A DNA stretch of 61,630 bases, the filler included, from Dugesia japonica (taxonomy: Eukaryota): NCBI GenBank assembly GCA_001938525.1. It is 5 parts of 5 records of this genome, joined end to end, with 100 filler letters (N's around TTAATTAATTAA, not from the genome) between each part and the next. Parts side by side here need not be neighbours in the genome. Positions count along the whole stretch, not along the records: positions 1 to 11,384 come from MQRL01596022.1; positions 11,485 to 21,299 come from MQRL01529196.1; positions 21,400 to 30,168 come from MQRL01606360.1; positions 30,269 to 51,831 come from MQRL01543935.1; positions 51,932 to 61,630 come from MQRL01470575.1. One strand, 5' to 3'. The translations under genes and the position numbers were made by a program. Shown here piece after piece: positions 5,358 through 60,376 of the stretch. The notes under the pieces were generated by a model, which was not told the DNA's origin, searched no databases, and saw nothing but the letters and a program-made list of their open reading frames with translations. Position 1 is the first letter of the stretch. Each line of letters begins with the position of its first letter.

Positions 5358-5492
5358 CAATTATTGCGAGAATAATTGTTGGACTTAACCATTGATAGCG
5401 TTTGATATTTCCTTAAAATAAAGAAAAGGCTTCGATCAAAAATAAAATTTATTTGAAAGAAATTCAATTTTTCGACCATAGTCTTTCAGGAA
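5358..5492 (-). repeat. Hammerhead-repeat family copy (degenerate core plus terminal hairpin)
   Basis: Minus strand: TTC-CTGA(--)AAGAC-TATG-GTC-GAAA, then TTTGATCGAAGC and TCAATGGTTAAGTCCAACAATTATTCTCGCAATAATTG, as in the copies at 29.1, 43.8 and 44.5 kb. Confidence 0.65.
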
Positions 5493-6124
5493 CATGATGA
5501 CTTCTTGATAGATTCAACNNNNNNNNNNNNNNNNNNNNNNNNNNNNNNNNNNNNNNNNNNNNNNNNNNNNTTTTTTAATTATGAATTTTAATTTTAAATT
5601 GACTCTCAAAATCTTTTTTAATTAAATTGAAAAGTCTTTTAGATATTTAATTATTAGTTGTGTTTTGATATAATTTTCATACATTAGAGATTTTTAAAAG
5701 TTTTTTTCCAATTATAACTTTTTATATAATAGTTATTTTAAAAAGTTTATTCGATTTTAATTTTTATATATTAGAAATTTTGAAATTTTTACAATTATTA
5801 TATTATAATTAAAATTTTAAATTATTTATTTTTTTGTATTTTTGTTGTGTTTTTTGTTACATATTTACTATATATATATATATATAATTAGTGTTTTTAT
5901 TTATGTTGTATTCAAAAGTTAATATTTTAAAATCGATTTTAAAATCAATTAAAATAGAACTATTTTTATATTAAAATTATTTTTTTAAAAAAACATTTAA
6001 AAGTTTCTTTCAAATTCGTATTAAAATTTTTTTTATTAATATTAGTTCATTTTTTACAAATATATTTATTTTAAACATATTATTTATTGATATTGATTTA
6101 AACTTTATTCTCAAATTTTTTTTA

Positions 6125-6900
6125 ATTATTGTAACTGTTGAACACCACATTGATCTGAGGTTTATCCTCTTTAACTAATATTTGTTCATGTTTCTTTCTG
6201 TGAAGTGTAAAAATGTAGCNNNNNNNNNNNNNNNNNNNNNNNNNNNNNNNNNNNNNNNNNNNNACATTATGTTTGTTTTGAAAGGGTTTGAGATGTTCTT
6301 TAATTCTTCTATGGATGGTTCTGCATGATTATCCTATAAATGTATCTTTACATAAGGTGCATGTTTATTTGTAAGTGATATTTTTTATTGCAGATACTTT
6401 TACCATCACAAATGCATTTTGGACCACAAAATTCTGTCTTGGTTTCTGTAAATGGATACCCAAAGGTGCTTGCGTTTTAAATATAATTCTTGGATTGTGT
6501 TTGAGTTTCGATTTTTTTATTATATTTTGCATGATTTGGCTACATTTCTCATAAATAAAAGAAAATTTAATTACTGTGTTTGTTTTTTGTTTGATTTTAT
6601 TAAATTTTGCACTTGAGGATAAATACTTAGATACAATTATATTTGGATAACCATTATTTAGAAATTTATATTTTATCAGCCTGAAAGAGGTCAATCTCAT
6701 TTATTCATTTGAAGATAGTCTTTCAGCTCTTATTCTTTCACCCTTAATTATTCCAATTTTCTGTCTGATGGTAGCATTACTACTCCAGAGTAATATATGT
6801 CCACGGTGAGATGGTTTCATATATAACTGGATAGTTAATATTTCACCAAGCGAAGAATATATTAAACCATTAACTAAATAATCAATATTATTTATTAAAT
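6125..6900 (-). mobile_element. Penelope-like element remnant (RT thumb + GIY-YIG endonuclease)
   Basis: YMKPSHRGHILLWSS..KIGIIKGERIRA..FLNNGYP (PLE thumb), ITYK*TCTLCKDTFIG*SCRTIHRRIKEH (GIY-YIG), EQILVKEDKPQIN. Confidence 0.8.
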
Positions 6901-6963
6901 AATAAATTACAAGAAATTATCATCGTATTGTATCACTTTAAACATGACTTTTATCTTTCAAAA

Positions 6964-7267
6964 TCTATATAAATAACAATGTAAATGTAAATGTTCGTTT
7001 GTTCAAGATCGAAAAACTCCAAAAGTATTTCAAACAGCCTTGAAATTTTGATAGATTACTTCTCATATGGACAATTGTATGTTGCATGTTCTAGATTTAG
7101 CAAAATAAGCAATCTTTATATCTATACAAAACAATAGAACAACAAAAAATATTGAACATCCACAAGTATTGTAAAATTAAATATATTAGAAACGTATTGA
7201 TTCTCTTTTCTTTTCAGTTTAATTCAACCAAACTGAGCCACAGCAATGCGTGGCCGGGTATGGCTAG
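6964..7267 (+). mobile_element. Complete non-autonomous Helitron (about 304 bp)
   Basis: Inserted between A and T. 5' TC(TATAT), subterminal hairpin GCCAC-AGCAATGC-GTGGC (7237-7254), 3' CTAG, no TSD. Confidence 0.85.
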
Positions 7268-9295: not shown

Positions 9296-9354
<59 letters not shown>

Positions 9355-11322: not shown

Positions 11323-11325
<3 letters not shown>

Positions 11326-11384: not shown

Positions 11385-11484
11385 NNNNNNNNNNNNNNNN
11401 NNNNNNNNNNNNNNNNNNNNNNNNNNNNTTAATTAATTAANNNNNNNNNNNNNNNNNNNNNNNNNNNNNNNNNNNNNNNNNNNN
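11385..11484. other. Artificial 100-bp scaffold spacer
   Basis: 44 N + TTAATTAATTAA (stops in all six frames) + 44 N. Confidence 0.95.
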
Positions 11485-12600
11485 AACGTATTCTCCGACT
11501 CTCTAACAACTTAATTACCATAGTAGTTCCAGGTTTCAGACCATATTCATAAATATGGCCATTTACATCATTAATGCTAACTACTGGTGTACAAACAATA
11601 TATTCGCCTATGGGTTTTGCCGATTCAACCTCCTCCAATGCATTGAGTAAATCTTTTACAGTTTTCCTTTCAGTTTTAACACTATTGGAATGTTCCACTT
11701 TGTCGCCACTGGTACTTTCTTCAAAACCTGATCCATCTTGATGTATGCGGTTTAATCTTCATCCGGTCTCCATGCTTCCATTGCTTTGATTTTATAATCC
11801 CCTACGGTTGTGTTTTCTAGCAACTCTTTTCCATATTCCAGAATTAATGGTCTCCACTTTTGACCCGTCATTGTGTCCATATGACCTGGTTCGGCTAACT
11901 TAACTAAATGATTCATTATTTTCCAATAACCCTTCCTGAGTAATTCATCCTTTAATGATTTAGCATCCTTTATGACTGTTTCTACATAGTCATACACTCT
12001 TGTTTTGTATTTAATCGGTGCTTTCAATCGCGCTGGATCGCTTTTGGTTATCATACTGATTTGTTTGTCAGGTCATTGGCTGTTTGATCTCCTTTACCAC
12101 ATCTGCCAGAAATNCTTGCTGCAATTTGCTTATTCCTTTGGTTGTAGTTGTTGACTCCGTCCGTACTAACAACATTTATTTGTGATATTTCTTTTCAAAT
12201 GATTTTACTATTTGCTCGGTCGTTCTGAAATCAAAATAATATTACAATGGTCGCTTAATGCGATGCATTTCTACTAAATCTATTAACTTTATTGTAGTTT
12301 TACCTGGCCAGACTCCATATTTCGAGATATGTGTTTTAGCATCATCTTATTCTATCACTCTAGTTCGAGAACACAAAACATACTCTCCGATAGGCTTTGG
12401 CCATGCCAGTTCATTCACTGCTTGTAATAATCCACTCACAGTAGTATCTTTCAATACAATTTTCCTAAGTATCTCTTGATATTTCAATTCAGTTGAATCT
12501 TCATCTATGGCTGGCTCGTAAGCATTAATACTATAATCATCGGGTTTTGTATGACTACGAATTTCCGATTAAACTTCTTGCGCCTGCGGGAACCACACTT
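11485..12600 (-). pseudogene. Decayed ORF downstream of gag with two copies of a ~65-aa ubiquitin-like-looking domain
   Basis: DTTVSGLLQAVNELAWPKPIGEYVLCSRTRVIE*DDAKTHISKYGVWPGKTTIKL (about 12460-12250) aligns with KTVKDLLNALEEVESAKPIGEYIVCTPVVSINDVNGHIYEYGLKPGTTMVIKL (about 11670-11490). Confidence 0.55.
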
Positions 12601-12889
12601 CGCTGGTGTACCTATCTAACTCCCATGACTCCATTAACTTCAACACATGCTTCATCATTGCCGAATATGCTTCTCGATAGACTACTGCCTTGAATGTTTG
12701 AATCATTGTAATTTTATCCTCCACCTGTCTAGTTATCGCTGCTCCTTTTGCTGTTAATTTTGCTGATAGTTCTACCTACATTGGCTGAGCTCTCATCATA
12801 TTTATTCGTCCTTGATTATTCTCTAGTTTTTGCATTCTCTCTCTCACCACTTGTTGTTCCTCCAATTGTAATTGCAAATATTCCTGTTC

Positions 12890-13960
12890 TTATTTCAACT
12901 TGTCAAACACTCGCTGCTCTGTTTTATATTGCCTTCGCCTATCTTGTTGCATAAGATTCACTTGTTGTTGATTTTGGTTTCGATTATTTTTTATATGGTT
13001 CCTTAATTTATCATTTTCGTCCATCATTTTCCCAATGGCCTGGTTGTTTCTCAATTTATTATTGTAGTTTGTATTGGAATTCCCATAGCCCGATCTTCGA
13101 TTATTCTGGAAACAATTCCTACTCGTGTGACTCGATTTATTGCATGTATAAAATTCTGGTGACTTTGTGATGAAGCAATTTCCCGCTTTATGCCCTGGTT
13201 TTTGATAATTTGTAAATATCATTGCCGATCTGCAATCTCTGGCATAATGACCGAGTTTACCCCAGTTATAACATGTACTTCCCTGGGTTTGCTGCCACGA
13301 TCCTTGTCTATTTCCTCCATTTCATCTTTTACTATTATTTGATTGTCACGGTGGCGGTCTATTCTGACCTGGTGACAGTCCTCTTAATAATGGTTGAGTT
13401 CTGGCAGGCATAAAATCCGCAATTTTCGGTTCGCTTTTCTCTTCCTCTATTTGCTCTTTAATTTTAAAAACACTGGCTTGCTTTTGATTCATTTTCACTT
13501 AATGGGCTACCATCGCCGCGTTTATACTACATAGATCTACCCATTTTTTCACTTCTGCATTTCTAAGTCCTTTAATAAAAATACCGAGCACTGTTGGATC
13601 ATCCAACTTATCTTTCATCGCCAATTTGCCGAGTTTACGTAATTCTACCTGAAAGGTTTCATCACTTAATTGTCTTCGATCAACAAACTCTTGAACCTCT
13701 TGTCCTTGCAACATTAATGGCTTAAAGTTTTCTAATAATAATTCCTTAGCTTTTTCTCATGTATCAACGGGTTCTTTACTACAACTAATTTTATCCCAAT
13801 AAATAGTTTTAGCTGAATCCTTCAAATATAGAGGTAATCGATCTGCTGCTCTCTCTACTCCATTGACACGCTTGTATATGTATCCCATAGGCTGCAATAA
13901 AATCATTTAATTTCTCAGGTTGTCTGTTAAAATAATCTCCATTAAACTCTGTTTTCCATT
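12890..13960 (-). mobile_element. Ty3/gypsy-type gag (capsid + three zinc knuckles), degenerate
   Basis: RLPLYLKDSAK..W, RRQLSDETFQVELRKL...FIKGLR, then CYNWGKLGHYARDC, (F)TNYQKPGHKAGNC and (F)YTCNKSSHTSRNC knuckles. Confidence 0.8.
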
Positions 13961-24334: not shown

Positions 24335-24381
24335 TATTTGCGATCGATTTCGACGTAATAATAGTCATCCCCAGGCAATTA
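24335..24381 (-). ncRNA. Minimal type I hammerhead ribozyme (core mutated) in the 3' terminal region of a PLE
   Basis: UUGC-CUGGGGA-U-GAC(loop)GUC-GAA-AUCGAU-C|GCAA: stems I and II present, palindrome in place of stem III, CUGANGA has an A>G change. Lies about 110 nt downstream of the GIY-YIG ORF on the same strand. Confidence 0.6.
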
Positions 24382-24489
24382 AAGAATATTAAAACAAATT
24401 TTTTACAAAGTTTAAATGATTATATAATTTCCATTGTGCAATCTCAATAAAAAAATAAAAAAAATAATTTTAAGAGTGATGCTGAATCC

Positions 24490-24900
24490 GTCTATTGAAC
24501 ATTAATTTTAGGATTTAATGCACTTATCAACAAAGCTTCACACATCACTCTCTCCGAATAATTATGGATTCAACTGCGCAAGATTTTAAAATCAGAACAC
24601 CCTATTGATTTTCAACATTTTCTCCAATGCTCAACAATATTACTATTTCTACAATTTCCACTATGCTCTTGAACTTTGGTGCAGAGATGATGGACAGTCT
24701 CTCCAATGTATGTGGCGTTACACCCATAACATTTAAATTAATAGACCAGATCAGAGCACAAACCTAAAGTGGTTATAGATTTATTATTGAGACACAACTT
24801 TATATTAAAAATATTCTTCGGAGCATTTTCAATCGAAAGTTTGAATTTTTTAAAGCCTTCAGAATAAGGTAAACATAAAAAAATTTTAGGATCTGTTTCT
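24490..24900 (-). mobile_element. Penelope-like element GIY-YIG endonuclease remnant
   Basis: IFLCLPY...LCSDLVY*FKCYGCNATYIGETVHHLCTKVQEH..SNIVEH...DFKIL...ERVMCEALLISALNPKINVQ. Confidence 0.85.
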
Positions 24901-25869
24901 ACAACCTCAGATACATTAACACGAGACAATATAACCTTTAAATTTTGATTTGTTATTGTAAGTATGGTTGGAGACAAATAAATCTTTTGATAGTTCGACT
25001 GAAGTTGTTAACCAAAATAGTTTAATAAATAATTAAATTAACTTCATTGAATAAAGTTAGAAAATTTAAAATTTCAATATTGGAGAATTAAGTATTGATA
25101 ATCTATATTTAATTAATGACTTAATTCAATAAAATAATTTTTTGTTGCGTTAATTTTAAAATTTAATTTTTGGAATAATTTTCAAATAAACGTTTAAATA
25201 ATTTAATTTGTATTAAAATCTTTTGAATGAAATTTTTCGAAAATTTAATTAAAAATATTTTTTATTAATTATAAAATTTTGTAAAATGATAATTTTTTCA
25301 AATTTATTGTTATAGAATTTTTTTAATAATTTCGGTCAGAATTAAATAAAAATGTTTAGCTTGTTTTAAAATTTGTTTAAAAAAACAAATTTATAATTAA
25401 GGTTTTTGTTTTGTCTTGAATAAATCTTGGAATGAAAAGCGTTTCTTTTTAAAATGCAATGACGAATGTAACAGATTCCTCTAACAGTAATTATTCTAAC
25501 TTTTGATAAAAACTTCCTTATATGCTAACCTATAGTGTGGAAATGTAGTTTTTGACTAATATTTTCTTTATTGTATGAGGTCATTTAGAAAGTAATGGTT
25601 CATTTTTAAACCAAACTTTAAACTGATATTGCATTGACTTTTGAAAACTTTATACTTCAAGAAATGGTCAATATGTCAAAAGAAATGAAAATCTGTGGGA
25701 ACCAAGTTCGGTGAGTATAGTGTATGAGCAAGAGTTTTCATAACCGAAAGTTTGAAGTTTTTGTACGACTATTCTTGAAACACATTGAAAAAATAACAGG
25801 TTCTCTTAAAATAAGTTATCTTGTTTGAACAAGTATAAGGCAAGACTGAATAAACGAGGAATTTNAAAT

Positions 25870-26410
25870 GTGGCACATACTGAAAGGAAATTGGATTGTC
25901 GTGAAGGAGTATTGCACCTTGATGATTGACTAAAGCCAGCTGTTTTTGCACTAAATTATTTTACATACCTCCAACTGCTCACAGCACGATGTCGCCGTGA
26001 ATGTCTCACGAGGTAATATAAAAGAAAAGTAAATAACTTTCGTAGTTGACCACCATACAGTAAACATGGACTTTTTCGGATGGAGCTTCATTTTTGTGAA
26101 CTGTTTAGGGGACTCTCCAATCGATAACCATTATGCATAACGTTTGCATTCAATAAATTTTAATTCACTTTTTATCACAAGTAATGATGCAACCTAAGAA
26201 GGCATCGGTGGAATATCTTCTGACAAAAGATGTTGCTATTTCTAGTTTCCTTTTAATGTGGATTTTTGATTTTGCTGATCATCTTCAGATGNTCGAAGAT
26301 AGTTGANTGCGAAATATGCATATTTGTNACTATTTCTAACACAATTTGTCTTGAATATTCCTAGACTATTTTTTTTAAAACATCGTCATCAAAAACAGAA
26401 GGTAACCGGT
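25870..26410 (-). mobile_element. Mariner (DD34D) transposase remnant
   Basis: FLGCIITCDKK, KMKLHPKKV, LVNHQGAILLHDNP match the mariner motifs TGDEKW, LHPKK and LLHDNARPH. Confidence 0.75.
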
Positions 26411-29148: not shown

Positions 29149-29315
29149 ATTTAATATAAAAGCTTTGATAAAAATTTTGGTTTTTTATTGATATTGGATA
29201 ACAATTCGATATCAATAAAAAACAAAAATTTTGACCAAAGCTTTTATTTTAAATGAATTCTATAAAACGATCAATGGTTATGTCCAACAATTATTCTCGC
29301 AATAATTGCAATTGT
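29149..29315. repeat. Fold-back copy of the hammerhead-repeat family, central ribozyme deleted
   Basis: Same inverted arms and 3' hairpin tail as 43761-43990. Centre joined at an ATAT microhomology. Near-perfect flanking repeat AAATAATCAAAT / AAATCATCAAAT. Confidence 0.8.
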
Positions 29316-29914
29316 AAAATCATCAAATACCAAAATTCAATATCAACTATAGATTGTAACAATAGCAATTCCTAAAAATTTATTCTACACTTAATAAGTT
29401 GTTTATTTCGACAAAATATTATTAAAAGAATGAAATTGAAAGCATTTTCCTCTTGATTCTAACAGAGCTCTCAATAATTTTTGTGAATAATAAAATCAGT
29501 TATGCTTGAGATCATGGCTGGCCTACCCAAATGAACTTAAGGGCCACTTTGGAAATGCATCATAACTCCGTGGGCCGCATATAAAAGTATAACCACATGT
29601 TTGATTTAGAATCTAAATCTAAAGATATTTGCTTGGAGTGAAAAATTGTAACATGATGAGTTATTATTGTGTTTACTATTATTCATACATGTAAACATAG
29701 ATAATATAATAATAATAATTTTAAACGAACATTGTTAAAAATATATAACACTAAAAATAGGTTCTAGGACAAAATGGTATNNNNNNNNNNNNNNNNNNNN
29801 NNNNNNNNNNNNNNNNNNNNNNNNNNNNNNNNNNNNNNNTTTTGTTCTGGCTATCCCCAGTAATAATTTTATATACAGTTATTTAAAATTTGAAAACATA
29901 CCATAAAATCAATA

Positions 29915-30280: not shown

Positions 30281-30452
30281 GACTGCCCATATCTTGTAAT
30301 AATATCTTAAAAAATATCAAGACTGCCCATATATTGTAATAATATCCTAAAAAATATCAAGACTGCCCATATATTGTAATAACATCCTAAAAAATATCAA
30401 GACTGCCTATAGCATGCATAAATATAGAGACTGCCCATAACATGCATAAATA
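30281..30452. repeat. 40-bp tandem repeat (GACTGCCCATATATTGTAATAATATCCTAAAAAATATCAA x3) plus two shorter variants
   Basis: Units start at 30281, 30321, 30361, 30401 and about 30429. Confidence 0.9.
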
Positions 30453-30559
30453 AATTAATTTAATTAAATTTAATTATATTAAAAANNNNNNNNNNNNNNN
30501 NNNNNNNNNNNNNNNNNNNNNNNNNNNNNNNNNNNGATTAAAATGAAAAACTTTAAATT

Positions 30560-32510: not shown

Positions 32511-32822
32511 AAGGAAATTCATTATAAAAGTCGAATTTGTTTAAATTTTAAAGTTTTTTAAGAATTTTTATCAGATTGTTTTGTAGAAATCCGAGCAAAC
32601 CGTTCATGTTGTTTAAATAATATGAAAATTTAAAATTTTTTTAATGAAATCTTTATGTGAATCTGGGTGAACAGTCTAAAATTTTGAAAAAAATGTTCTT
32701 TATCTCAGATTCCAAAGATTTGTATACCAAACTGTTGAGAACTTTACGGCGATCATTTCTAAGAAATAAAAATTTTTCGATAAACCTTTCCTTTTCAAAT
32801 AAGTTAAGAAAGTATCAATTAG

Positions 32823-33340
32823 ATAGAGAAATTTCGAGACCAATTTTTTTATATTCCATTCTCGAAAGGTTGTGGCACATTTATTTGCAATTGGTATTTA
32901 ATTGTGAAAATTCTCTTTACTTTCAATCCGATTATCAATTTGTACATACTCAAGTGGCTTTTCGGTCAAAAGTCTGATGGAGTGTTAAATTTTTATAAAA
33001 CGCTTTTTCTCTTGGTATGGAATTCAGAAGATTTTTATTACACCAAATATTTCCCTATAATGACTGTGTGCAAAGTCAATCTTATAGTTTTGGGACAAAT
33101 ATCCAACAATTATTTAACGTTTTGTATTCATCCAGAAAATCTGTTCAACAGATACTTTGTTACTATAATAGCTATTTGGTTGATGTTTCTCACTAATGTC
33201 ACATTTATCGGATTGTTAACGTTTCTTAACAATTTACTTTTCTTCAAGGTTAGAAGGTCTCTTATAAAAAGAATTTTACGGCATAAGAAAATTAATTTTT
33301 CTGAAGTAAATAATGGATATTTAGTCTTCATTATCACGGA
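32823..33340 (+). CDS. Innexin fragment (TM3, extracellular loop 2, TM4), intronless here; the frame continues to 33656 into unrelated sequence
   Basis: SKGCGTFICNWYLIVKILF..NLYILKWLFG (TM3), YFPIMTVCKV..LGQ....TFCIHPENLFNRYFVTIIAIWL (FPxxTxC...C.LP.N..NEK...W motif), R..LIKRIL..NNGYLV. Confidence 0.8.
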
Positions 33341-36231
33341 TGATCCTCAAGAGATATTGGAGAAATCCGCAGCAATAGTTGTTACAATGGAACAATCAAG
33401 GGGTACAGACCCAGAGATAAATCAACAAGAATCAGAGATTCTTGATAGCTGTAAAATCATAGTTGAATTCAGAAAAGATGTTCAAACCACGCTAAATGAG
33501 CAATTAGAGAAGTTAGCTAGCGTTGAATTAGCTGACAAAGACATAGATAGCATAGTGCAAATTCTATCTACAATCAAGCACGAAACATTTATTTTAAGGC
33601 AATTTCAGAAATTTGTCGTAAAATATGCAAAACAATGCAACATGATTAGTATTTGAGAAATGCCCAACTAGTTATACATATGCCAAAGGGGGCATATGTA
33701 ATAACTGAAATAAATGTGCGAGAAACAGTAGCTAAGTTGACGTCTCACTTAAAAAGAATGAAGCGTAAAAAATTTGAACGAGACATAAGATAGAGAAAAA
33801 ATGATTCTGTTATGCGGCATATTGCGAAATGTGAAAACAGAATTGCAGGCTAAAGAGAAGGTGGGTGAGGTAGCCACTATTAGCCAAGATAATGTATTTG
33901 CTATAAAATATATGGAATTAGACCAGCTCCAAGAGGCTCAGACTATTCCACGGCGATTGGAAAAGAGATCCAATCGAATATAAGAAACAATGAAAATATT
34001 AAAAATATTTTGAGTTGGAAATTGTCATTAAATATTTCAACGGATACATGAAAGGAAATAGTACCATTATTACTACCTCTGGCTGGTACGCCAAGTAGTT
34101 ATCAAAATGAAATCTGTATGCTAATACGGAAAAAAGATCTAGCATTTAGGCAAGACCCAAAAGGACAAAGTGAACTTTTTGTACCAAATCACCTAATTCA
34201 TAATCTATCTTGAAATTACTGTCTTCTTAATGTTTTTGCGTATCTGATAAATATTCATCAATCATGCATCCTTCTTGATTTTTCTCTTTTTTATGATTCA
34301 TTTGGCCNAGGAATATATTTTGCGCCTTTTAGTAATATTCATGGCAAAACATTATATGTAGCATTCTTTAAGTGATTGCATATGTGTTTACCGCTGCCAC
34401 AATATCACTCACAAAAAATTGCAAAAATAGATAGTATTATTTATACAATGTACAAAACGAAACACTACGTGTTATACTTCTCAAACTTTAAATAAATGAA
34501 TATTTCCTTAGGACTTGGAATACAGTGAATTGCTAATGAATTCCTTTTTAACAAAAACTAAAACATAAACCAGGATTTTTTCATTTTCGGCTTTGAATAT
34601 TTGACTTTCTTCGTTGATTCATAAGAAAAACGTTCTTAAAAACTGACTTAACATTAAACTAGTAATACAGAGGATTGTTTAGTCGATATAAAAATTTATC
34701 GTGTACACTCATTACAATAAATATAAAACAAAATATCTATGAAAAGTATTGATAACTATTAGCTTGGTTTGTGCAATATTTTAATAAAAAGAACTAGAAA
34801 AATGTCGTTAAAAAATATGACAATCTAATTAAGGTGATAAGGAGTAAACTTCCGTTTCTGATGAATATTTGTTTAAAGATGTCAGGAAAGACATCTATCT
34901 CTTTTTATGTAAGAGTTTGGATTATAGAGGTCTAAAACCAAAGAAACAAAGTTAATAAGATTATATAAAAACAGAATTAATGAAATCAAAAGAAAGCAGA
35001 ATTTATGAGATCGAATGAAAAGAAAAAAAAATAATGTTCAAATAATAGTCATGAAAATTGAACTACTTTGGTAAAGATATTAGAGAGCATGACTGAACAA
35101 GTTTTTTAATGTTATAAAAATACAAGTCTTTACTAATTTGACAATGAAAGCGAAAACTAATCACATATATAATGAATAATTGCGATTAAATGGCAGAATT
35201 GACAACAATTACTCATGAGTTCAGAAAGTAAAGATAAAATAATTTATTGGTGAGATCTAAAAGCCGTAAGGAAAGAACTTACTCGGGCGACTAAGAAGCA
35301 AAGCTAAAGTAATGTGTCGATAAGACCTAAAGAGAAGTTGAATAGAAGTACCAATCAAATAAAATGAAAGCAGATATATTTTAATCATAGAAATAAATAT
35401 TTCAATACAACATAAATCAGGTGAAAACAATTGGAAAACAATCGAAAGTGGAACGGGAATTTTATCACTATGAGTTGACCTTCTAAGTTTTGATTTATAA
35501 ATTTTGAACTTTTTAAAAATTTTATTTTTGAATTGAGATTAATTCCACTTTGTCTTCGTCAAGAATTAACTTTTTATAATTAATTTGGATAAATATTTAT
35601 ATTTTTTTTAATATGTGACCTATTTGTATGGCTAGCCCAAAATTCATTATTTTCAGTTTTTTAATTTCTCAAATAGAGATTTAAAGCTTCTATATCAGCA
35701 GATTCTGAGAATAAAATAAGAGCGTATATTTCAACATTTAAATAACTTTAATCACGATATATACATTTTAATTGGATTTCATAAGCTATTTAATATTTCT
35801 AAACTCACACAATTGTTGATTTGCCTTTGCGAAATCCCAAAGACAACTCAACATTAATGTTCAAAATATTAATTAAAATTTTTTATTAAATTATACAATA
35901 AAGTGTTGAAATTCTTTAAAACATAATTTGTTTCAGAATTTCAGTTGGTGATTTAAAATAAGGCAAAATGTGATAAAAATTATATTTATAAATAAAAAAT
36001 GTTTAGCTTATTGTAATTTCATACAAGACTTAAATTACTTTTATGTTTTCTTTAAATTTTGAAATCTAAAGTATTTAATAAAATATTCTGCTAAGAATTA
36101 ATTTTCCAATACTTTTCATTTTCTATTCAAATTATTTGTAATAGTTTAAATATTTTATCAAAATTTGTCTCAAATTTAGTAATTAAATTGATTTAAATTT
36201 GTTAAAATATTGATTTATATTAGCATTAATT

Positions 36232-42200: not shown

Positions 42201-45200
42201 AATATTAATACTACAGTTACTTTGTAAAGTCTACCTATTATATTCATGATATAATGAGAATAATAATAGCAAACTGCCACTGTTACTTCTGACATCAGGC
42301 ATTGTGTTCATAAAATAATGGGAATTATCTATTAAATTGCACTTTTAAAAAATTTATTAACATTTACAAATATGATTTAATTTCAATTTTAATTTTAATG
42401 TAGAATTTTTATTAAGAATTTTACACTATCCTTTTGTATATATTATGAATCATATACAGAATATTACAATTTGATATTTTAAGAAAATTTAATGTTTTTT
42501 TTATCTAGAAAATATTATGGTCAAAATATTACATTGGAAATTCGAAAAATCTCCTGCAATATTTGAACAATAATAACGAGCAATATCTGGTTTGTGAAAA
42601 CGAATTTGTTATGTCCAATAAAGTTGTTTATTTTATCATATTATTAGTGAAAATTTATTAATCTATTCAGTCAAAAACCGAAGTGAAAGAATTCGATTCG
42701 AATATTATTTCAAGTTTGCGTAAATCGCGCGGAAAGATTTATATTTCTCTGGAAAATGGAGAGATTTGGAAATATGATATTATAAATCGAATATTTGTTC
42801 ATTTATTTTCGTTTCAATCTAAAATGAAAGCTTGTGTAAATTTACCAACTAATTTCAGTTTATTTCTGACAGAGGTTTAATTTTATTAATTTCTTATGGA
42901 GTTGTGAATATTTGGAATTTATCGATTTTAGGATGGACAAGTATTGACTACACGCTATCGGAATTCTAAAAGAGTACCAGAATTAGATGGTTGTGTAGAC
43001 ATTATAGCATCATATGGAGCAATTGTTGTTTGTTATTTCGGAAATGGAGTTTGTAAAATTTATGTAATGATTTGATTTATTATGATTTTTAATTGTTATT
43101 TATTGATTTTTACTTATGGATTTATTTTAATGTATTTAATTGTGCAATTTTAAATTCACTTTTCCTTTGGTTCCAGAGAATCACTACTATTCAAAATCAA
43201 TGATTAGTATTTATTATGCATATTAATATAATAAAATCAAATAAATCTGATCCTAAATTAAATTTTAAACCAATTTTTGAATAACTGGATATCGTTTATA
43301 TTATTATCTTTAAAATGTTCGAGTTGTCCATCATAAAAATCACAACCAATAAAATTTGACTGAAAAATCTTTAATTTATGTATAAAGCAGTGTTTTCGAA
43401 TATTGGAATTATTTTAAAAGAGAATTTTTGAGATTATGCAATATGTTTATCGATCTAGTTTTGATATGTTAATAGTTGGTATATCTTATTTCTAGGAATA
43501 TTTTAATTTTTATTGAGTATTTTTAGAATTTAGTAAGAATAAAGAAATGTAGATATTTATTTTCAAAAAAAAACAATTTTTATCCCGCATTCACGAACGA
43601 CAAATAACAATTGAACTTGTTGATATTGTTATTTAAAATTGTATTTAAGAATATTTCACTTTGGAATTTATCTATTTTCCTTTTTTTCTTTAAAGAAGTT
43701 TTTGTATTAAAAATGTTCTTTTAAAGTTGTGAGTTCGAATATATTAATTATGAAATTATAGAATTCATTTAATATAAAAGCTTTGATCAAAATTTTGGTT
43801 TATTTATATTTACTTTATTTTATATTGATATTGGATAACAATTCGATATTTCGACATTGTCTTCGTCAGGAAATCGAAATGTTATCCAATATCAATAAAA
43901 AAAACCAAAATTTGGATCAAAGCTTTTATATTAAATGATTTCTAAAAAACGATCAATGGTTATGTCCAACAATTATTCTCGCAATAATTGTAATTATGAA
44001 ATTATATAATTATAATAAATTAATATAATATAATACAATTTTATGTTTTAATTTATTTTGAGCTTTTGGAATTTCAAATTCATATTTTTATTTTATTTTC
44101 TCAACTATTACAATCTAATTAATACATTTAACGAATTTTTCATCTTTTTTTTATTTGTTAATAATATTAATAAATCGCCTTTTTACAAAAATAATTCTCA
44201 TTCAATGTTTTTATCCTTAATCCTCCAGGATTTGTTTCCTGAGAATGAATAAATATGTTTTCATTTTTGTAAAATTCATGTTTTCAATCACTTTTTCCCA
44301 AAATGTTTTGATAAAAATTGTATAATATCTACATGAAAATTTTTTGACAAAATTATAAATACTTTACAACAGTCACTCCCAAAATGAGGTTACGAGGAAT
44401 ATCAGTGTTTCGTTGGCGATCAAAAAGGGTTCATTAAAAAAAGTAACTAATTATCAATTAAAAAGTCAATTCCTTACGAAGACTAAGTCGAAAATTTGAA
44501 ATATTGTATAAAAAATTGATTGAATCTTTTATTTTAATGGGGTACGTCCAACAATTATTCTCGCAATAATTGTTATTGTTAAACAAATACCAATTATATA
44601 TTAATAAAATAAAATCTAATTCCACTGCTTCATAAAATAGTTGGGAAATCTCCTATATAGAAACGAATATTTTAGAAATTTCAATATGATAATAATGTAA
44701 CATTATAATGATCATACCAAGCTTAATAAAATACTTTATATATAATATCTTCATTCGACATTTTTATACAATTTTGTTGTTTTGAATGTTTTTTCTTCAT
44801 ATTTCGAAATTTATTATTTTTAAATATAAATATCAAAATATTATTTTTTGAAAACAATTTTCATTTTTAATTGAAAAAAATCGATAAAATAGTGTAAAAT
44901 TATTTTTTTATTTTCTATAAAAAATAAAGATCTGCTTTTTTGAAAATATTAAAAACTATTTCAACAAATTATCACATTATGTTTAAGATTTTACATTTGT
45001 TTAAATCCATGATGCACCGATATCAACAAAACGAGTTTAAAAGCTTTGAAAATAAATAAATGTTTTTTTAGATATTTAACAAAACAAATAATTAATATTT
45101 AATTTATTATGAATTGCGAATTTTTTAATGTATGATTTTAGGCCAACAAGAAAATGTTTGAATTGGAAATTTCTCAATCTATAAAATTTGCAAAACTTTC

Positions 45201-45489: not shown

Positions 45490-46084
45490 TTTATTGTTTA
45501 TTGACTTTTTTAATTGATTTCTTACAATTTTGGGTATTTATATAATTTATGATAGATTAGAAATAATTTTGTTATTTATATTATTTTATATTTATATTAT
45601 AAATATTACAATCAAACAAACCTTGTGTGTATATATGATTGCTTGTAGATCATGATAGAAATTTATTTAAATAAAATTGGATTCGGAAAAAGTATCAAAA
45701 ATCCTTCTTCTCAATATTAACAGTTTTCAATTTATATTTAACCAATTTTTTGATTTATGTATTTTTTAAATTTTATTGAAGACAAACTTTTCTGTTATTT
45801 AATACTTTGTTAGTTATGATGTTGAACTATGTTTTTGTAAAAAGAAAAATTCATTTTAATATTTTCAACATAAAAACTCGTAATAAGATATTTATTTGGT
45901 TAATGATAATAAATTGATTTGACTCGGTTTATCAGGTAAAGATTCATCTTCCTGAAAAAATTTAAACATTTCTCTTACTTAAACTTTATTATTATTTGTA
46001 GTATTAATATTTTAATACTAATAAATTCATTTGTTTAAATATTGTGATTGAAATAAACATTACGAATTCAAAACTTGTTATTTT

Positions 46085-48645
46085 GGCGAAATCAGAATTT
46101 CCAGTTAACAATAATGATGTCAGAAGTGGCGAAGAAAACCACAACCAAATCTAAATGTCAAATTACTCAAACTCAACAAATTGGTTTGCCCAAGTAGATG
46201 CAGCTTTTGAGCTATCAAATAACCGAAGTTCAAGGAAAAAATAATTCCACTGTCTTACCAGTCTGCCACCAGCTATATTGAAATTAGTGTCACATGAAAT
46301 GAATCCTCAAGTTGAAGACCCATACGCAAAATTGAAAGCTGCAATACTAAGCAGAACCACAATGTAAGCCATGAATAAATTAATGAATCCCAGTACTGAT
46401 TCTTACAAGACTCCATCAAGAAAGCTGTCAGCAACATATGTGATGAGATCAACGCAATCAAATGAAACAATTTTACAAAATTATTGAGTCTCATCGAAAT
46501 CCAGAAACTTCCAATATTTTGAGACTGAAGTTCTGGAATTTCTACCAAAATACATGTGACATCATTTAGTTCAGCACAGAGACAAAAGCCTTGAAGAATT
46601 AGCTCAGTTAGTAGAATATCATTTTGAAATGGATGATCAAAATGTCGAAATTACTGACATCAGGCAATTGGAAAATCAGCATGACGAAATCACAATCAGA
46701 AACATACGTGATGAGATTAACGCAATCAAAGCCAAACAAAAACACATTAAAGATAAGATATAAAGAAAGATATATGTTACTTCCAAAGATAACTTGGCAA
46801 AAATTCAAGAAAATGCCAATCTCAATTCGGAAAAAGGCAATGAATCTCACTGAAATCAACCACTGAAATCCGCGACGAACCCAAACAGTCGGTAGAAGTA
46901 CAATTTATTTTCACAGTCTCAGGTTGGTCAAACAATAATCAAAATATATTTCTAATTGAATCAGATGCAGATATCAGCATCCTACCATATCAAATGTTTA
47001 TCCAAAATAACAACAATGTTAAACATTCATTTTTAAAAGCAAATGAAAAAAACATAGTTTATGGTGAAAAGATAATTTTACTTCACATACTAAGTATTCA
47101 GCCACATTTTAATGGACGTTTACAGTAGCAATTAAAATGTTGAATTAAATATTGAAATCAGATGTTTTGTCAAAACATTGTCTTTTAATAGATTATCGTA
47201 GCAATCAGATCTTTCAAGGACGACAGCAAAGTAATGAAATTTTAAACCCAGAATGCGCAACGGTGCTGCGAATAGACACCGATGGTATACCAGTTCATCA
47301 ACGTGCTCAAAGATTGGGACCATTAATTATGAAGAAAATCAAACTTGAATTTAAAAAATTAATTAAACAAGACATCGTCCCACCAAGCAGTAGTGAATGG
47401 GCATATTAAATGGTATGTATCAGGAAGAAATATGGAACATTTTGACAATGCGGCAATAACCGAATGTTGAACTCAATAACTAAGCCAGATAAATAACCAC
47501 TTCCTAGAATGAGTGACATCCTAGACAGAATCAATGGATGTAATATTTTCTCCACAATGTATCTGAGAAAATCCTACCGTCAAATTTCAATCCAAGAATC
47601 AGACAGGCACAGAACAGCAATAATTACACCATTTGGCATATTTGAATACAGAAAGATGCCATTTGGATTGAAAAATTCATCACAAAAATTTAAAAGACAC
47701 ATGGACACTTGCCTTAGCAGTTATCAAGCCTTTGCTTCTGTTTATGTTGATGACATTTATATCTACTCTAAATATGACAAAGAACACATAATTTATTTAA
47801 AAGAAATCATGTTGGAACTTGAAAAACACGGATTGATCATCAACTCAAATAAATGTCAGCTCAATAAAAATGAAGTAAAATTTCTAGGATTCTCGATATC
47901 CAAGAAAGATATCAAACCTATCAATGAACGAATAAAAGCTATCAAACGTTTAACAACACCAAGGAATGCAAAAGCCCTACAGAGAATCTTAGGCACTATG
48001 ACATTCTATCAATGAATGATTCCAAAAATGTCATAGACACTTGCTCCAATTCATGAACTTACAACACCACGTAATAAGAAGAAATATTTTAAATGTTCAT
48101 GACTATACGACAAGGCATCTCAAGAAGCAATACAAAACTATCTGAAGTGACTGAAATGGCAACTGCTGGTCAATAAAAGACATTTATATTATGCACTGAA
48201 GCGTCACCAGATTGCTAATGCTAAGATTAATTTCAGATCAATATTTTTGGCTAAAAATGAGAGCTCAAATCCGAAATTGGTGTGAACACTGTCTTAAATG
48301 TCACGCAAATAAAGTTTCAAGTCACACGAAGGCACCGATTGATACATTACCAAACTTAGGAAAATTTTAAATAGTACAATTAGATATAGTAGGACTTCTA
48401 CCAACTATCAAACGTAAAAAATATTTGCTTACCATGATTGATAAAGAAACCTCATGGACTGAAGTGGCTCAGCTAAGAGAAATCACTACGTCAAGCATAG
48501 TTGCAGCGATAATAAAAGACTGGATACGGCGTTTTAAAGCACCAGAAATCGTGATAACAGACAACGGACAACAATTTGTTTCAAGAGAGCTCAACACATT
48601 CTGTGATACATTTGAAATTGAGCATATGCGTACTACACCAGTAGG
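46085..48645 (+). mobile_element. Ty3/gypsy retrotransposon remnant (gag-PR-RT-partial RH-IN)
   Basis: WFAQVDAAFEL gag, FLIESDADISILP (protease DSGA-like), PSSSEWA, TAIITPFGIFEYRKMPFGLKNSSQ, VYVDDI, NSNKCQL..VKFLGF, WCEHCLKC, WIRRFKAPEIVITDNGQQF. Many stops. Confidence 0.92.
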
Positions 48646-48679
48646 TAGATAGTGGTGCATGGACAAAATTTGAGTGCAC

Positions 48680-54920: not shown

Positions 54921-55753
54921 TTAAACAATAGGAGTTTCTCCAAGATATCCACAATTTCTAAATGGATTGATATTTGTTGAAGTGAGCTGACCAGTTGGTG
55001 GATTATCATAACAATGATTCAACTGATTTTCATAGTAACTTCCATTGGGTGGAGGAGGAAAAAAATCTTTTGGATTATTGGGAGGATAATAATTGTGCTG
55101 ATTATTACATACAATTCCACATCGTTGTTCTTGAACATGCTGATCTTCAGCACATATGTCATAAGTAGCATCTTCATCGGTGTAATTTGATTGAGAAAAG
55201 TACGATGGAGTCATTTGTATGAAATTTTTTGATGGTATTGATGAAGAATTCTGCCAACCTTTCAGTGAATTCGAATGATCTGATGTATTACAATCGTTGC
55301 TATGATCATCTTCTTCCTCTTCTTCTTCCTCAATCTCTGATTTGTCAGCTTCTTCATCTTCTTCCAATAAACTAGTTGAATCATCATTTTGCCCTGATCT
55401 AGTTATCGATTCATATTTATTGAAATCCCGTGTGGAATTTCCCGATAATCTTAAATTAAATTGAGATTGGTATGTTTTTTAAACTACTTACATTGCGCTG
55501 CTACTGGAACCATTGCCATTCGATATGTGACTGGAAACCATTGACGACAAATCAAGTGGATATCCATTGAGTCCCAGTTGAGTTGCACTGTTAGCTCCAT
55601 TGGAACCAGGTAAATACGGATCATCAGATAAATGTGTCATTGATAACATGTCATGAGGTGGAGGGAGTGCAAAACTGGATGCAATGGAAATAGTATCAGA
55701 ATGATGAGTCATATTCATCATATTAAAGGGTACACATGAATAATCGATATATC
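54921..55753 (-). CDS. Last two exons (55753-55492; 55449-54921) of a gene with S/P/N-rich and acidic low-complexity C-terminus (transcription-factor-like)
   Basis: 42-nt GTAAGT...AG intron joins the exons in frame. Poly-E tract; no recognisable folded domain. Confidence 0.7.
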
Positions 55754-58579
55754 CTATAAGAAATAAAATAGATTTAATAAAATTTTTAACATTTGTATAA
55801 AAAAATATCACTTCTGAAAAGCTGTGTCAAAATCAATATAATTTAAAATTAATTATTTCTATTTTTTAATTTGTTTTTCTATTTCTATTTTTTTATTTTT
55901 TAAAATTAATTATTTCTATGAAAAAAGAATAATGATACAATCGATTAATCAATAACTGAACTAAAACTAAAAATATTCAATAAAATCCAACAAGAATCTA
56001 TTTGAAGCTATTGTCACATTGTTTAAAAATTTATAGTTATCAACGTTTCACCATTCATTCTTTACAGTCTTCGATGTTTTTAAAAAACACCTTAATTTTT
56101 TAAATTCCTTATCCAAAAATGATGGGAAAAAAGTGTTGAAAAATGCCTATGAACTTTATTTAAAAAATGATGTGAATAAATTCTAGTTCTGTGATTACAA
56201 GAGACTTTACGGAAATAAATCTTTTTAATAAAATGTGATGATTTTGATAGATCTAATATTGAAGGCTATCAAGTATGTGTAAATGAATATCGATAACTTA
56301 TCGAATAAGAGCAACGACTTGTAGATATACATTATCAATTCTAAAAAAATTACACGACAAAATTAACTAGTATTTGTCAAATAATTTTCGATTTATGCTT
56401 TTCCTATATTCTTGAATTTCAAACAGTTTATTCTCCATCAAAGAAATTTATTCACATTTATTTAGGAACTACATGCAGCAGCCTACTGATATGAATCCTC
56501 CAAATTACAAAAAAAACCTTACTGTGCCAACAGGCAAAGGGTTCACTTAAATTCAAAAAGTTGTATATTGGCGCACGTTTCCACAATTTACTTAAACATT
56601 ATTTAAAATTATTTATTTAAACTCCAAATATAATTTTACATTTTGGTATCCTAAGTAAAAATAATCTTGATTTTTAAATTTTAAAAAAGATACTTTTCAT
56701 TTTATTATATAATCTGAAAATTTTTTACTAGTAAACACAATTCTAACTCAGAAGTTGCTGCTTTCCATATCAAACAACTCATTATCACAAGCAAAAAATT
56801 GATTATTTTCAAAAGTAAAATATTATCGATCAATTATGCTTTCCATCAATTAAATAAATAATTTTGTAATTTAGAGTTGGATAAATGATTCAATATTTCA
56901 AATTAAAAAAAATGATTCATAATAAAATTGACCCATAAAAAAGAAATTAATTATATTTTCAATAGAAAAAAATGGATTTACTACTGAATTACACCGCATT
57001 TCATTGAAATTAATATTTTGATATTTCTATTAAACTAGCAAACTAGTTTGTTTGAAATTGAAGTTTACATAGGAATGTCAAGAAATAGATTGTGAAGACA
57101 TCAAAATCGGTAATTGGTTTTCCTATATTTCAACAAATGAAACAGCTGATATTTTCTAGACAGAACATTTGTCCTTAGGAGTCAAGTTTGGTCATTTTTA
57201 ATGGTAAATGTATGTATCAAATGGGAATTTTTCGGAGATTGACTTGAATAAAATACTAATTAATTATGTTTTCACAAAATTTTTTGTTATAAATGAAATT
57301 CCAAATTATATTTCAAATTTCATCATTTTTTAAAATCAATATGAAATTATTTGGTAAATTCGGAAAAATATTCTCCATATAATCAAAATTTTATTATTAA
57401 TATACATATTTTTAATTATATTATTAATCTTAATGATTTAACACGCTATTTTATTACAAATTCTAATCACACAGTAAAATAGATATAGCATTAATATCAA
57501 TAACCTCAGAGTCATTTATATTCAAAATTTTAGGGAAAAAATTGACACATCAAACGAAAATTTATTAACGTTGTAAAAGTTCTTCAACAAAATAAATGAT
57601 TGCGAGACACAATGATTCAGATTCCAAAGACCAGAGATAAAACTGTCAATTAGGGCACGATGGGATTCACTTTATCAGACTGAATTTACTGGTATATTCG
57701 GGCAGAAATGAAAGCAAATTAATCTGATAGAGACCAGTAAATAATCTGATGTATGTATTCCTCTTAGAGAACATTAATCTTTACTAGAGAAAAATGTCGA
57801 TGATTAATCTATTGATCTAATGAAGTCTGTTAGAACCATTGTGTTGTTTGATTTTTTGTAGAAATCTCGGATAGATTTGTACAGGGTTATGACGCCATGG
57901 TATCAGTAATTTTTATTTCCAATCGCTGTAAACAAATAGATTATTTTGTATTCCAAAATTGAGAAAGTTTTCAATTGACTGATTTTTTAAAAGTCTATTG
58001 TCAGTAATTTACACAATGAATTCAAATTTTGTCATCTATATCCGTTTATTCGTTTATCTTATAAAACATTAAAAGTATAAATTAATGAGAATGTAGAAAG
58101 CGGAAGAAAAAAATAATTTTATATTAATTAAGAATGCAATTTTTATTTTCTAAAAAAGTGATAATAATTATTTCTATTAGCCTTGAATTCTAATATTTAA
58201 TTTAAATTGATAATATTTNNNNNNNNNNNNNNNNNNNNNNNNNNNNNNNNNNNNNNNNNNNNNNNNNNNNNNNNNNNNNNTAAAGATTATTTATTTTTTT
58301 ATTTATATAACCTATAAAAAGAATAATGACCATCAAATATTTTAAATAATTTTAGCATATCTTATGGTATTGAAACAGTTAAATTTAATATTCCAAAACA
58401 ATTCTTTTAAGTGAGAAATAAAACAAAAAATCCTAAGCTCACAGTGATTATTTTCGTGTTGATAATTTTTATTATTAATCTTTAATAGTATTTAATAATA
58501 AACAATTATTAATCCATATTTTCTAATTTTAAATATTATTTATGTGTAATATTTATTTATGTTGTCAGGAAAACGAAAA

Positions 58580-59060
58580 TAGTCAACTAAAGCTTAACCC
58601 CTAATAGATTCTAAAATGAGTTTACAGTCCACTAAAAAAATATTGAGTGTTTGGTGTGATTATAAATGGATAATCTACTACGAACTGTTTCAACACCACC
58701 AAGCTGTATATAAGCTATAAAATATTCCGAAAATAACACTATTTTTAAATAATTTTTAAGAATACTGTTCTGATATTTTCAAATAAACGAAAGTTAAATT
58801 CTTCTATGAGAATGCCAGACTACATGTTTCGAAATTTATAAAGGAAAACTTTCGCAACTCAAATTTTTTGTATTGATTACTAGATTTCATGATATTTCCA
58901 AAACCCAACATGGACAACGAAGTCCATTTTTCAACTAAAGGTTTTTGCCGCCAAAAATGAAATTTTTCATCAATACCAACAGTAATTATATAAATGATTA
59001 AATGTGTACTTATTCTTACGCCTTTGTTGAAAATAAAATGATTTGTTCTAAATACCCAAT
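58580..59060 (+). mobile_element. Mariner transposase remnant
   Basis: KKILSVWCDYKWIIYYELF (KxMLxVWWDxxGxIYYELL) and FYENARLHV (HDNARPH). Confidence 0.7.
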
Positions 59061-60334
59061 TATGGGAAATTATTTATGTTAAATAATATAATAAAGATAC
59101 ATGCACATATTTACTTTTTTACAATTACATTCATTGAGAAAATAATTGTATGACTTAACCATTCATCGTATTTCAGATTTCATTTCGAAGANNNNNNNNN
59201 NNNNNNNNNNNNNNATCAAGAACTAAAATAATAAATAAAAAATAAAAACAATATTTTGATCGAAGCTTTTAATTTAGTAAAATATTTATTTTTGTTATAA
59301 TAATGTTCAGTATAGCTGATATTCTTTAATGCTTGTAATGCGCCAAATAAATTATTAAGAAACGCGCGATAAATAGTTATTGATAACTGAAATTTTAATT
59401 TTATTGATTTGTATCTTATTCCCAACTCAATATTAAATTGTGTTTTGATGGCAGCACATGGCCTAGTAAAGCTAGAATTCTCTGAGCTTTATTGCGAATT
59501 AATTAACTATTGTTTATCTATTAGTTGAAATAAAACTGAAACAATTTAAATTTTATTGAATCTTTATCTTTGTATTAAACTGACAGGATAAATCTACCCA
59601 TTAATTAAAGTTTATTCAATGTTAAAATATTTTTTCGCATAATTGAATTTTGAAAATTTCTTTCATTACAAAATCATCTAAATTAATTCAATAATTTATA
59701 GAGAAAATTTATTGAGTCACATAAAAGAAAGTGCATCATTTCTAATAACGAACCTATAGTGGTTCCCTAGATACAACACAAAATAGTAATTATTATAGAA
59801 AGAAAATGTGATTCAGAATAAATGTTCAAGACAATTGGATGTCATATAATGGGATATACGTTATAAATGACATATGTGAGATAGATGTCGGATATATAAT
59901 AGAAAAAGATTGCTTTGATTCAATTTATTTATCGTGTATCAATAAATGAGAATTTTTTAGCTTAAAATACAGAAATATAATTGTATACAAAATGAAAACT
60001 AGAAAATTAATGATAATAAGAAATAATTTGGAAATTACAGTAATTAGAGCGTTAATTAATTGTGAAACATGAACAAACAGGAAACCGTGAAATAAACGGG
60101 AATCGAATTTGAATATTTCTTTTTCTAAATGAATTACTATAAGAAATAATATATTAATTTGTTTAATTACAATATTTCAATATAAATATCTCAATTTTAT
60201 TTCAAATTGTAAAAGTAAATATGCAATCTGAATAAAAAATATTCGATGAAAACATTTACATCATATAATTTTGTAAAAAAANNNNNNNNNNNNNNNNNNN
60301 NNNNNNNNNNNNNNNNNNTTAAAATTAAACTTTA

Positions 60335-60376
60335 TTGTGATATATTTCAACGAATCAACCGTCGTCATCAGGCAAA
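60335..60376 (-). ncRNA. Minimal type I hammerhead ribozyme
   Basis: UUGC-CUGAUGA-C-GACG(GUUGAUU)CGUU-GAA-AUAUAU-C|ACAA: intact core boxes, palindromic AUAUAU, one mismatch in stem I. Confidence 0.6.

What the first reader, a model, noticed from the sequence alone, without database searches (positions are those of the whole stretch)
5358..60376. Dispersed minimal-hammerhead family on four independent scaffolds with covarying structure
Hammerhead-like cores occur at 5470-5489 (-), 24335-24381 (-), 35541-35566 (-, very degenerate), 43842-43872 (-), 44468-44500 (+) and 60335-60376 (-). Stem II stays GAC..GUY while its loop varies (AAU, UAA, UAUG, 9 nt, 7 nt). The segment after GAA is a different palindrome in four copies (AUAU, AAUU, AUCGAU, AUAUAU). 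Stem I switches between UUC/GAA and UUGC/GCAA. Those four copies also share one extra nucleotide after CUGANGA. Structure conserved while sequence changes points to selection on RNA folding, and about one copy per 10 kb would imply very many genome-wide.
Basis: partly seen in the sequence, partly recalled or inferred. Interest (0 to 1): 0.75.

Follow-up and report, generated by a model that had tools for sequence, protein, structure and literature searches.

The report
Decayed hammerheads of Penelope-like retrotransposons
The repeated motifs are real and sit beside pieces of Penelope-like jumping genes; they are likely worn-out copies of the small self-cutting RNA (minimal hammerhead ribozyme) already known from such elements, so this is an ordinary finding.

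Summary
The motifs are real: 4 pass a published minimal-hammerhead descriptor against 0.009 expected in 1000 shuffles. They are not a new RNA family. RT/GIY-YIG remnants end just upstream of three cores. The flank after family-A cores encodes the first 14-19 residues of an intact 843-aa PLE protein. The extra base after CUGANGA, G10.1-C11.1, the palindromic helix III, opposite-strand pairs and high copy number are all described for PLE minimal hammerheads (PMC4209133). Only 1 of 7 copies (43842-43872) fits the consensus fully. Stem II shows no double-sided change, so folding was probably selected in active ancestors, not at these sites. Expression and cleavage are untested. The scan noted the same kind of element in two other genomes. 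Small lead: both readable family-A inversion junctions fall in the helix III palindrome.

The parts
6134..6877 (-). Family A PLE coding remnant: RT C-terminal/thumb, linker and GIY-YIG endonuclease, with 3 in-frame stops in 6266-6850 and an N gap
   Evidence: tblastn to intact 843-aa protein P0004 residues 587-843, 63% identity, E 1e-89; at least 117 of 151 PLE-like proteins hit it
5461..5493 (-). Family A hammerhead, broken (2-base deletion in CUGANGA, helix III AAAU not palindromic); lies about 645 nt after the ORF remnant, with a 52-N gap in between
5354..5395 (-). Start of the PLE ORF repeated in the 3' pLTR, about 70 nt after the predicted cut site
   Evidence: matches P0004 residues 3-16, 12 of 14 identical, E 0.019
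24483..24992 (-). Family B PLE coding remnant (GIY-YIG end of the ORF), with in-frame stops
   Evidence: profile E 3.5e-19, positions 627-809 of 822; about 50% identity to RT + GIY-YIG proteins P0155/P0156, E 2e-33
24338..24378 (-). Family B hammerhead about 100 nt after the ORF remnant: stem I UUGC/GCAA, A6 changed to G, helix III AUCGAU, predicted cut after 24342
29149..29324 (+). Family A pLTR-only insertion: inverted arm plus forward arm ending in the ORF start (29268-29324); no full core, the inverted arm begins in helix III
   Evidence: (P0004 residues 2-20, E 0.002)
35541..35575 (-). Heavily decayed family A hammerhead with upstream flank; no PLE coding sequence found nearby
   Evidence: 28 of 35 bases identical to 44460-44494; model R1 E about 1
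43842..43872 (-). The only hammerhead fitting the consensus fully (UUC CUGACGA A GAC-AAU-GUC GAAA UA U C GAA), predicted cut after 43845; lies in the inverted arm (43756-43872) of a family A insertion
43873..43991 (+). Forward arm of the same insertion: pLTR from 3 nt before the cut site to the ORF start (43950-43991)
   Evidence: (12 of 14 residues, E 0.092)
44468..44500 (+). Family A hammerhead, G5 changed to U, helix III AAUU, predicted cut after 44497
44541..44585 (+). ORF start repeated about 45 nt after that hammerhead
   Evidence: 11 of 15 residues, E 0.79, weak alone; DNA match to the 5350-5390 and 29276-29333 copies, E 2e-8 and 2e-10
59117..59271 (-). Family A pLTR fragment, inverted plus forward arm, junction hidden by an N gap
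60335..60376 (-). Family B-type hammerhead in the inverted 5' arm (60319-60471): CUGAUGA intact, G-U at 10.1-11.1, closing pair of stem I mismatched, helix III AUAUAU
60674..60763 (+). Short GIY-YIG remnant of family B type
   Evidence: tblastn of P0155, 57% over 30 residues, E 2.6e-4; 73% DNA identity to 24627-24715
60822..60865 (+).

Best explanation
The motifs lie in the terminal repeats (pLTRs) of decayed Penelope-like retrotransposons and are likely relics of type I minimal hammerhead ribozymes, which in the active ancestors would have paired two copies through the palindromic helix III and cut the element's RNA. Shown here: RT/GIY-YIG remnants end upstream of three cores, the ORF start recurs 45-70 nt downstream of family-A cores, and two cores sit in inverted arms next to forward pLTR arms. 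Inferred from the PLE literature: a tandem PLE transcript carries two hammerheads, which form a dimer and cleave after position 17, slowly and perhaps only with the PLE protein's help. The RT and GIY-YIG nuclease would then copy the RNA into AT-rich DNA starting a short way into the ORF. Most copies are 5'-truncated, so the pLTR and its hammerhead are left scattered, often with an inverted arm. After insertion the copies likely decay neutrally.
For: The window's 6266-6850 remnant finds an 843-aa RT + GIY-YIG protein at 70% identity. That protein's N-terminus matches the flank shared by family-A copies at four places, as in rotifer Penelopes whose pLTR holds the first 12-22 codons (PMC3846280 passage). 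The second remnant finds RT + GIY-YIG proteins at 51%. The motif fits the published consensus NNN CUGANGAH G..C GAAAN palindrome NU H NNN (PMC4209133 supplement). That paper also reports opposite-strand pairs 100-700 bp apart and an opposite-strand second copy at the 5' end of a truncated PLE. Descriptor hits were 4 against 0.009 expected. Changes in the conserved core occur in 5 of 7 copies.
Against: No full-length element with two direct pLTRs is in the window, and no genome is held. The flanks of the intact protein P0004 could not be read, so an intact hammerhead on an intact element of these families was not seen. A 52-N gap separates the 5470 core from its ORF remnant. The 35541 copy has no PLE coding sequence nearby. 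The single ORF-start protein matches are short (E 0.002-0.79). The remnants have no Pfam hit on their own, and Rfam's hammerhead models do not hit any copy. In the anole PLE, hammerhead cleavage was not needed for insertion in vitro and no RNA-seq reads ended at the cut site (PMC11167929), so the role of cleavage is itself unsettled.
Confidence: 0.93

Rival explanations
1. An independent, host-selected family of dispersed ribozymes, kept in place for a cellular role.
For: One copy (43842-43872) fits the consensus fully; the palindromes in four copies and one stem I pair differ in a compensatory way.
Against: Core positions are changed in 5 of 7 copies, and stem II has no double-sided change. 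The compensatory stem I difference separates two PLE lineages only about 28% identical in protein. The intact copy sits in a long near-perfect inverted repeat predicted to fold as a plain hairpin (-35.2 kcal/mol, z -7.65) rather than as a hammerhead.
Confidence: 0.03
2. Family A short copies are a non-autonomous PLE derivative (retrozyme- or SINE-like unit of pLTR plus hammerhead) that spread through small, possibly circular RNAs, rather than simple truncations.
For: Several family-A copies consist of about 150-250 nt of pLTR with no ORF body. Animal non-LTR retrozymes are proposed to derive from PLE pLTRs (bioRxiv 10.64898/2026.07.22.740005, abstract and introduction).
Against: Retrozymes are head-to-tail tandem arrays with a hammerhead per unit; none of these cores is in such an array. 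The copies end in the ORF start and carry inverted arms, as truncated autonomous PLEs do.
Confidence: 0.12
3. Chance matches in AT-rich DNA, or mere by-products of DNA hairpins.
For: The isolated cores do not fold better than shuffles (z -0.94 to +1.08 for 7 of 7); no Rfam hit.
Against: Descriptor enrichment, shared flanks and position next to PLE remnants. Weak monomer folding is expected for a motif that needs a dimer.
Confidence: 0.01

Closest known systems
Minimal hammerheads (min-HHR) in pLTRs of metazoan Penelope-like elements (Cervera and de la Pena 2014, PMC4209133)
   Same: Type I layout, CUGANGA plus one extra base, G10.1-C11.1, GAAA, short palindromic helix III, UH site, short helix I in U-rich/AU-rich flanks, mostly single dispersed copies at 3' ends of truncated PLEs, opposite-strand pairs, high variability.
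   Different: Family A has a 3-bp stem II with a 3-4 nt loop, at the short end of the published set; a 3-bp example is listed for Caenorhabditis briggsae. None of the listed motifs that I saw has this exact sequence. Six of 7 copies here depart from the consensus.
EN+ Penelope-like elements with C-terminal GIY-YIG (Penelope/Poseidon, Neptune, Nematis; PMC8557442, PMC3846280, PMC11167929)
   Same: Single ORF with RT then GIY-YIG, 843 aa in the family A relative; pLTR containing the ORF start; 5' truncation; inverted 5' arms with palindromic junctions.
   Different: Clade not fixed by a tree with named references. P0004 has a Cys-rich RT-EN linker (Neptune/Nematis-like); P0155/P0156 lack it (Penelope/Poseidon-like). 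In the anole element the ORF starts inside the hammerhead; here it starts 45-100 nt after it.
Animal non-LTR retrozymes (bioRxiv 10.64898/2026.07.22.740005; PMC7229834 seen in a search listing only)
   Same: Type I hammerheads that need a dimer, related to PLE pLTRs.
   Different: No head-to-tail array around any core here; PLE coding remnants are attached.

Membership tests
PLE minimal hammerhead motif | CUGANGA and GAAA boxes with UH cleavage site | tested here: met
   Fully met in 43842 and 60335; one change in 24335 and 44468; broken in 5470, 35541, 60836
PLE minimal hammerhead motif | Extra base between positions 9 and 10.1, and G10.1-C11.1 pair | tested here: met
   Extra base in 43842, 44468, 24335, 60335, 60836; G-C in 5 of 7, G-U in 60335, unpaired in 35541
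PLE minimal hammerhead motif | Palindromic minimal helix III | tested here: met
   5 of 7 copies palindromic; not 5470 or 35541
PLE minimal hammerhead motif | Helix I of at least 3 bp closing the core (type I) | tested here: met
   3-4 consecutive pairs in 43842, 44468, 24335, 5470; closing mismatch in 60335; disrupted in 60836
PLE minimal hammerhead motif | Location in the pLTR of a PLE | tested here: met
   6 of 7 cores within 700 nt of a PLE ORF end or ORF start; 35541 not
PLE minimal hammerhead motif | Self-cleavage as a dimer | not testable with these tools
   Needs in vitro transcription; no read evidence was obtained
EN+ Penelope-like element | RT followed by C-terminal GIY-YIG in one ORF | tested here: met
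   In relatives P0004, P0155, P0156 (RVT_1 at or above cut-off; GIY-YIG E 3e-4 to 2e-3, just under cut-off); the window holds only their C-terminal remnants
EN+ Penelope-like element | pLTR containing the first codons of the ORF; inverted 5' arm | tested here: met
   Family A. Family B: inverted arm seen; ORF start could not be checked because P0155/P0156 gave no N-terminal match
EN+ Penelope-like element | Full-length partial tandem with two direct pLTRs | tested here: inconclusive
   None in the window; no genome held
Non-LTR retrozyme | Head-to-tail tandem units each with a hammerhead | tested here: not met
   No tandem repeat around any of 7 cores
Rfam hammerhead families | Score against the Rfam models | tested here: not met
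   4 matches at E up to 10 in the window, none a hammerhead

The most novel reading that the evidence does not exclude
The hammerhead's helix III palindrome doubles as the joint of PLE inversions. Two cDNAs, or one folding back, anneal at the palindrome on uncut RNA templates, so the motif has a non-catalytic role in integration and sets where head-to-head junctions form. In both readable family-A junctions an arm begins inside helix III, 5 and 3 bases before the cut site with C17 retained. The one family-B junction does not fit.
Probability: 0.08. Interest if true: 0.55.

Novelty: new member of a known kind. Interest (0 to 1): 0.15.

Why it matters
As it stands it adds two PLE hammerhead families to a known, very widespread class and settles little. 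Its use is as material. Why PLEs keep hammerheads is open (PMC8557442 and PMC11167929 passages). A genome with about one core per 9 kb (7 in 61.6 kb here, if the window is typical) would allow a count of insertion junctions against the cut site and the helix III palindrome, which tests whether cleaved or uncut RNA is the template.

Tried and rejected
No genome is held for this window, so no genome-wide count, shuffle or covariation test was possible. Rfam: 4 weak matches, no hammerhead. Pfam on the three remnants alone: 0 of 3 hit. The innexin-like ORF gave no relative among 178 candidates (only longer proteins searched), so the host lineage is not determined beyond 'AT-rich animal, probably invertebrate' (inferred). 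Sequencing runs for 43500-45000: 9 of 24 listed rows hold the stretch or part of it, 3 of them half or more of its words, in 5 studies under one coded organism label. One may be the source sample, and no RNA holder is listed, which is no evidence on expression. No read evidence was obtained, so expression, RNA ends, circles and the inversion junctions in independent data remain open. P0004 against metagenome contigs: 2 loci at 27% identity, with no convincing hammerhead in a loose pattern scan; against viral contigs, 0 of 34 candidates. Covariance model R1 (6 copies, stem II only; alignment A4 misplaces the 5470 row and the family-A 3' ends): it recovered its 6 training copies at 26.6-40.1 bits; the next match was 22 bits at 17% GC (29396-29431, not inspected further), and 35541 scored 14.4. 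The extra 2-deviation descriptor hit at 28435 (-) is within chance (0.71 expected at that level). The script's parse of 35541 was off by one base and was replaced by the reading. The shared GAC/GUC stem II start in both lineages was not taken as evidence: G-C is constrained, and the copies were found by that likeness. Lunse et al. (RNA Biol, PMC5785218) is not held; it is known to me only through its citation in PMC6765202. Look-up of earlier notes on this genome: none.

Full report
Setting. The window is about 26% GC with many N gaps. An identical 100-base spacer occurs four times and probably separates five scaffolds. An innexin domain at 32826-33653 (Pfam E 7e-13) points to an animal; the lineage was not determined. 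No genome is held, so all DNA evidence comes from the window.

The observation. Parsed on the type I hammerhead plan: 43842 is UUC CUGACGA A GAC-AAU-GUC GAAA UA U C GAA and has no deviation. 60335 has an intact core, a 5-bp stem II closed by G-U, and a mismatch at the closing pair of stem I. 24335 has A6 changed to G; 44468 has G5 changed to U; 5470 lacks two bases of the first box; 35541 has several changes. A seventh core, 60822-60865 (+), is the inverted partner of 60335 with C3 and G8 changed. That G5 and A6 are needed for cleavage is recalled knowledge; for C3 and G8 it is stated in PMC11167929. A descriptor taken from the published consensus gave 4 hits with at most one deviation and a palindromic helix III, against a mean of 0.009 and a maximum of 1 in 1000 local dinucleotide shuffles. 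It did not recover 5470, 35541 or 60836 even at two deviations. 35541 is still a relative by sequence (28 of 35 bases with 44468). Rfam finds no hammerhead, and the isolated cores fold no better than shuffles.

Covariation. On six aligned copies, 0 of 3 stem II pairs change on both sides. By hand there is one compensatory change in stem I (U-A in family A, G-C in 24335) and two in the intermolecular helix III (AUAU/AAUU, AUCGAU/AUAUAU). That fits a conserved structure but is far too little for a statistic, and the stem I change separates unrelated element families.

What surrounds the cores. The stretch 6266-6850 (-), read with X at its three stops, finds one longer protein among 235 candidates: P0004, 843 aa, 70% identical, with RVT_1 and GIY-YIG domains. 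P0004 has 17,479 relatives at E up to 0.001 among cluster representatives. Back on the window, its C-terminus covers 6877-6134 (E 1e-89). Its first 14-19 residues match 5395-5354 (-), 29268-29324 (+), 43950-43991 (+) and 44541-44585 (+). These four places are the flank shared by the family-A copies. The order on the minus strand of the first scaffold is thus ORF end, about 645 nt (with a 52-N gap), hammerhead, about 70 nt, ORF start: a PLE 3' pLTR. A second remnant, 24992-24483 (-), is hit by 92 of 151 PLE-like proteins and by their profile at E 3.5e-19. It finds two RT + GIY-YIG proteins at 51% among 109 candidates and ends about 100 nt before the 24335 core. A short piece of the same type at 60674-60763 (+) precedes the seventh core. 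The cores at 43842 and 60335 lie in inverted arms upstream of forward pLTR arms.

How it most likely works. Shown: anatomy and position. Inferred from papers: a tandem PLE transcript holds two hammerheads whose palindromic helix III lets them pair into a dimer. For a Schistosoma minimal hammerhead, monomers did not cleave and dimers cleaved weakly (PMC4209133). For the anole PLE, cleavage needed the protein, was not needed for insertion in vitro, and reverse transcription began 111-118 nt into the ORF (PMC11167929), which explains why 3' pLTRs end in the ORF start. Frequent 5' truncation and inverted 5' copies (PMC8557442 passages) then scatter pLTR pieces with the motif. The changes in the core of 5 of 7 copies and the stops in the ORFs indicate decay after insertion. 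The one consensus-perfect copy is embedded in a long hairpin (z -7.65) that would compete with the hammerhead fold if transcribed with its flank.

Comparison with what is known. Its supplement gives the consensus and an example of a truncated PLE with a second motif on the opposite strand at its 5' end. PMC3846280 describes pLTRs holding the first 12-22 codons and palindromes at inverted junctions. Membership as PLE minimal-hammerhead motifs is met on sequence and position; catalysis is untested. They are not retrozyme arrays. Two earlier notes of this scan reach the same reading in other genomes; they are unchecked AI notes and came after my reading was fixed.

A lead. In the two family-A inversion junctions that can be read, one arm starts inside helix III. 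At 29149-29254 the inverted arm begins at A15.1, five bases including C17; at 43873 the forward arm begins three bases before the cut site. Both keep C17, which a cleaved 3' product would lack, so uncut RNA was probably copied and the joint may use the palindrome. A third junction is hidden by a gap, and the family-B junction lies about 100 nt upstream of its core. Palindromes at PLE inversion junctions are known. I saw no statement tying them to helix III: one search returned no paper, and one search returned 7 (6 listed), of which I read parts of four. With n = 2 and AT-rich microhomology everywhere, I give this 8%.

Papers seen. PMC4209133: parts 1-2 of 4 of the text and parts 1-2 of 3 of the supplement PDF. 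PMC11167929: parts 1-2 of 4. bioRxiv 10.64898/2026.07.22.740005: part 1 of 5; its supplements are closed and may list related families. PMC8557442, PMC3846280, PMC6765202, PMC6155905: passages only. Lunse et al.: not seen.

Verdict. Real, non-random and explained: new members of a known kind, mostly fossils. Interest 0.15.

Noticed in passing
window 4964-5055 and 6962-7051: A 92-base direct repeat (83% identical) flanks the family A PLE remnant on both sides; it may be a repeat the element inserted into, or a large duplication.
   Followed up: no
window 41100-42250 (-) and 45997-47800, 47497-48015 (+): Two decayed copies of an LTR-retrotransposon-type pol region on opposite strands, 66-79% alike, with an RVT_1 hit at 47497-48012. 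The Gypsy-like label is from recall.
   Followed up: partly
window 32823-33656 (+): Divergent innexin-like ORF (Pfam E 7e-13) with no relative found among longer proteins; its 3' part looks unrelated and may run across an exon boundary.
   Followed up: partly
window 11429-13321 (-): Fragments with a zinc knuckle (zf-CCHC) in a higher-GC segment, probably a gag-like retroelement remnant.
   Followed up: no
window 538-864 (-) and 25650-25900 (-): Remnants resembling a hAT-type and a Tc1/mariner-type transposase (recalled motifs; the first had no Pfam hit, the second was not scanned).
   Followed up: no
window 30281-32520: Several adjacent short tandem or satellite-like arrays (40-bp, about 30-bp, about 50-bp units) at the start of the fourth segment.
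   Followed up: no
window 54921-55826 (-): Two neighbouring open frames (185 and 112 aa), acidic and Ser/Pro-rich, with no Pfam hit; probably exons of a host gene.
   Followed up: no
window 3068-3283 and 3334-3549: A 216-base near-identical duplication across a 50-N gap, probably an assembly overlap.
   Followed up: no
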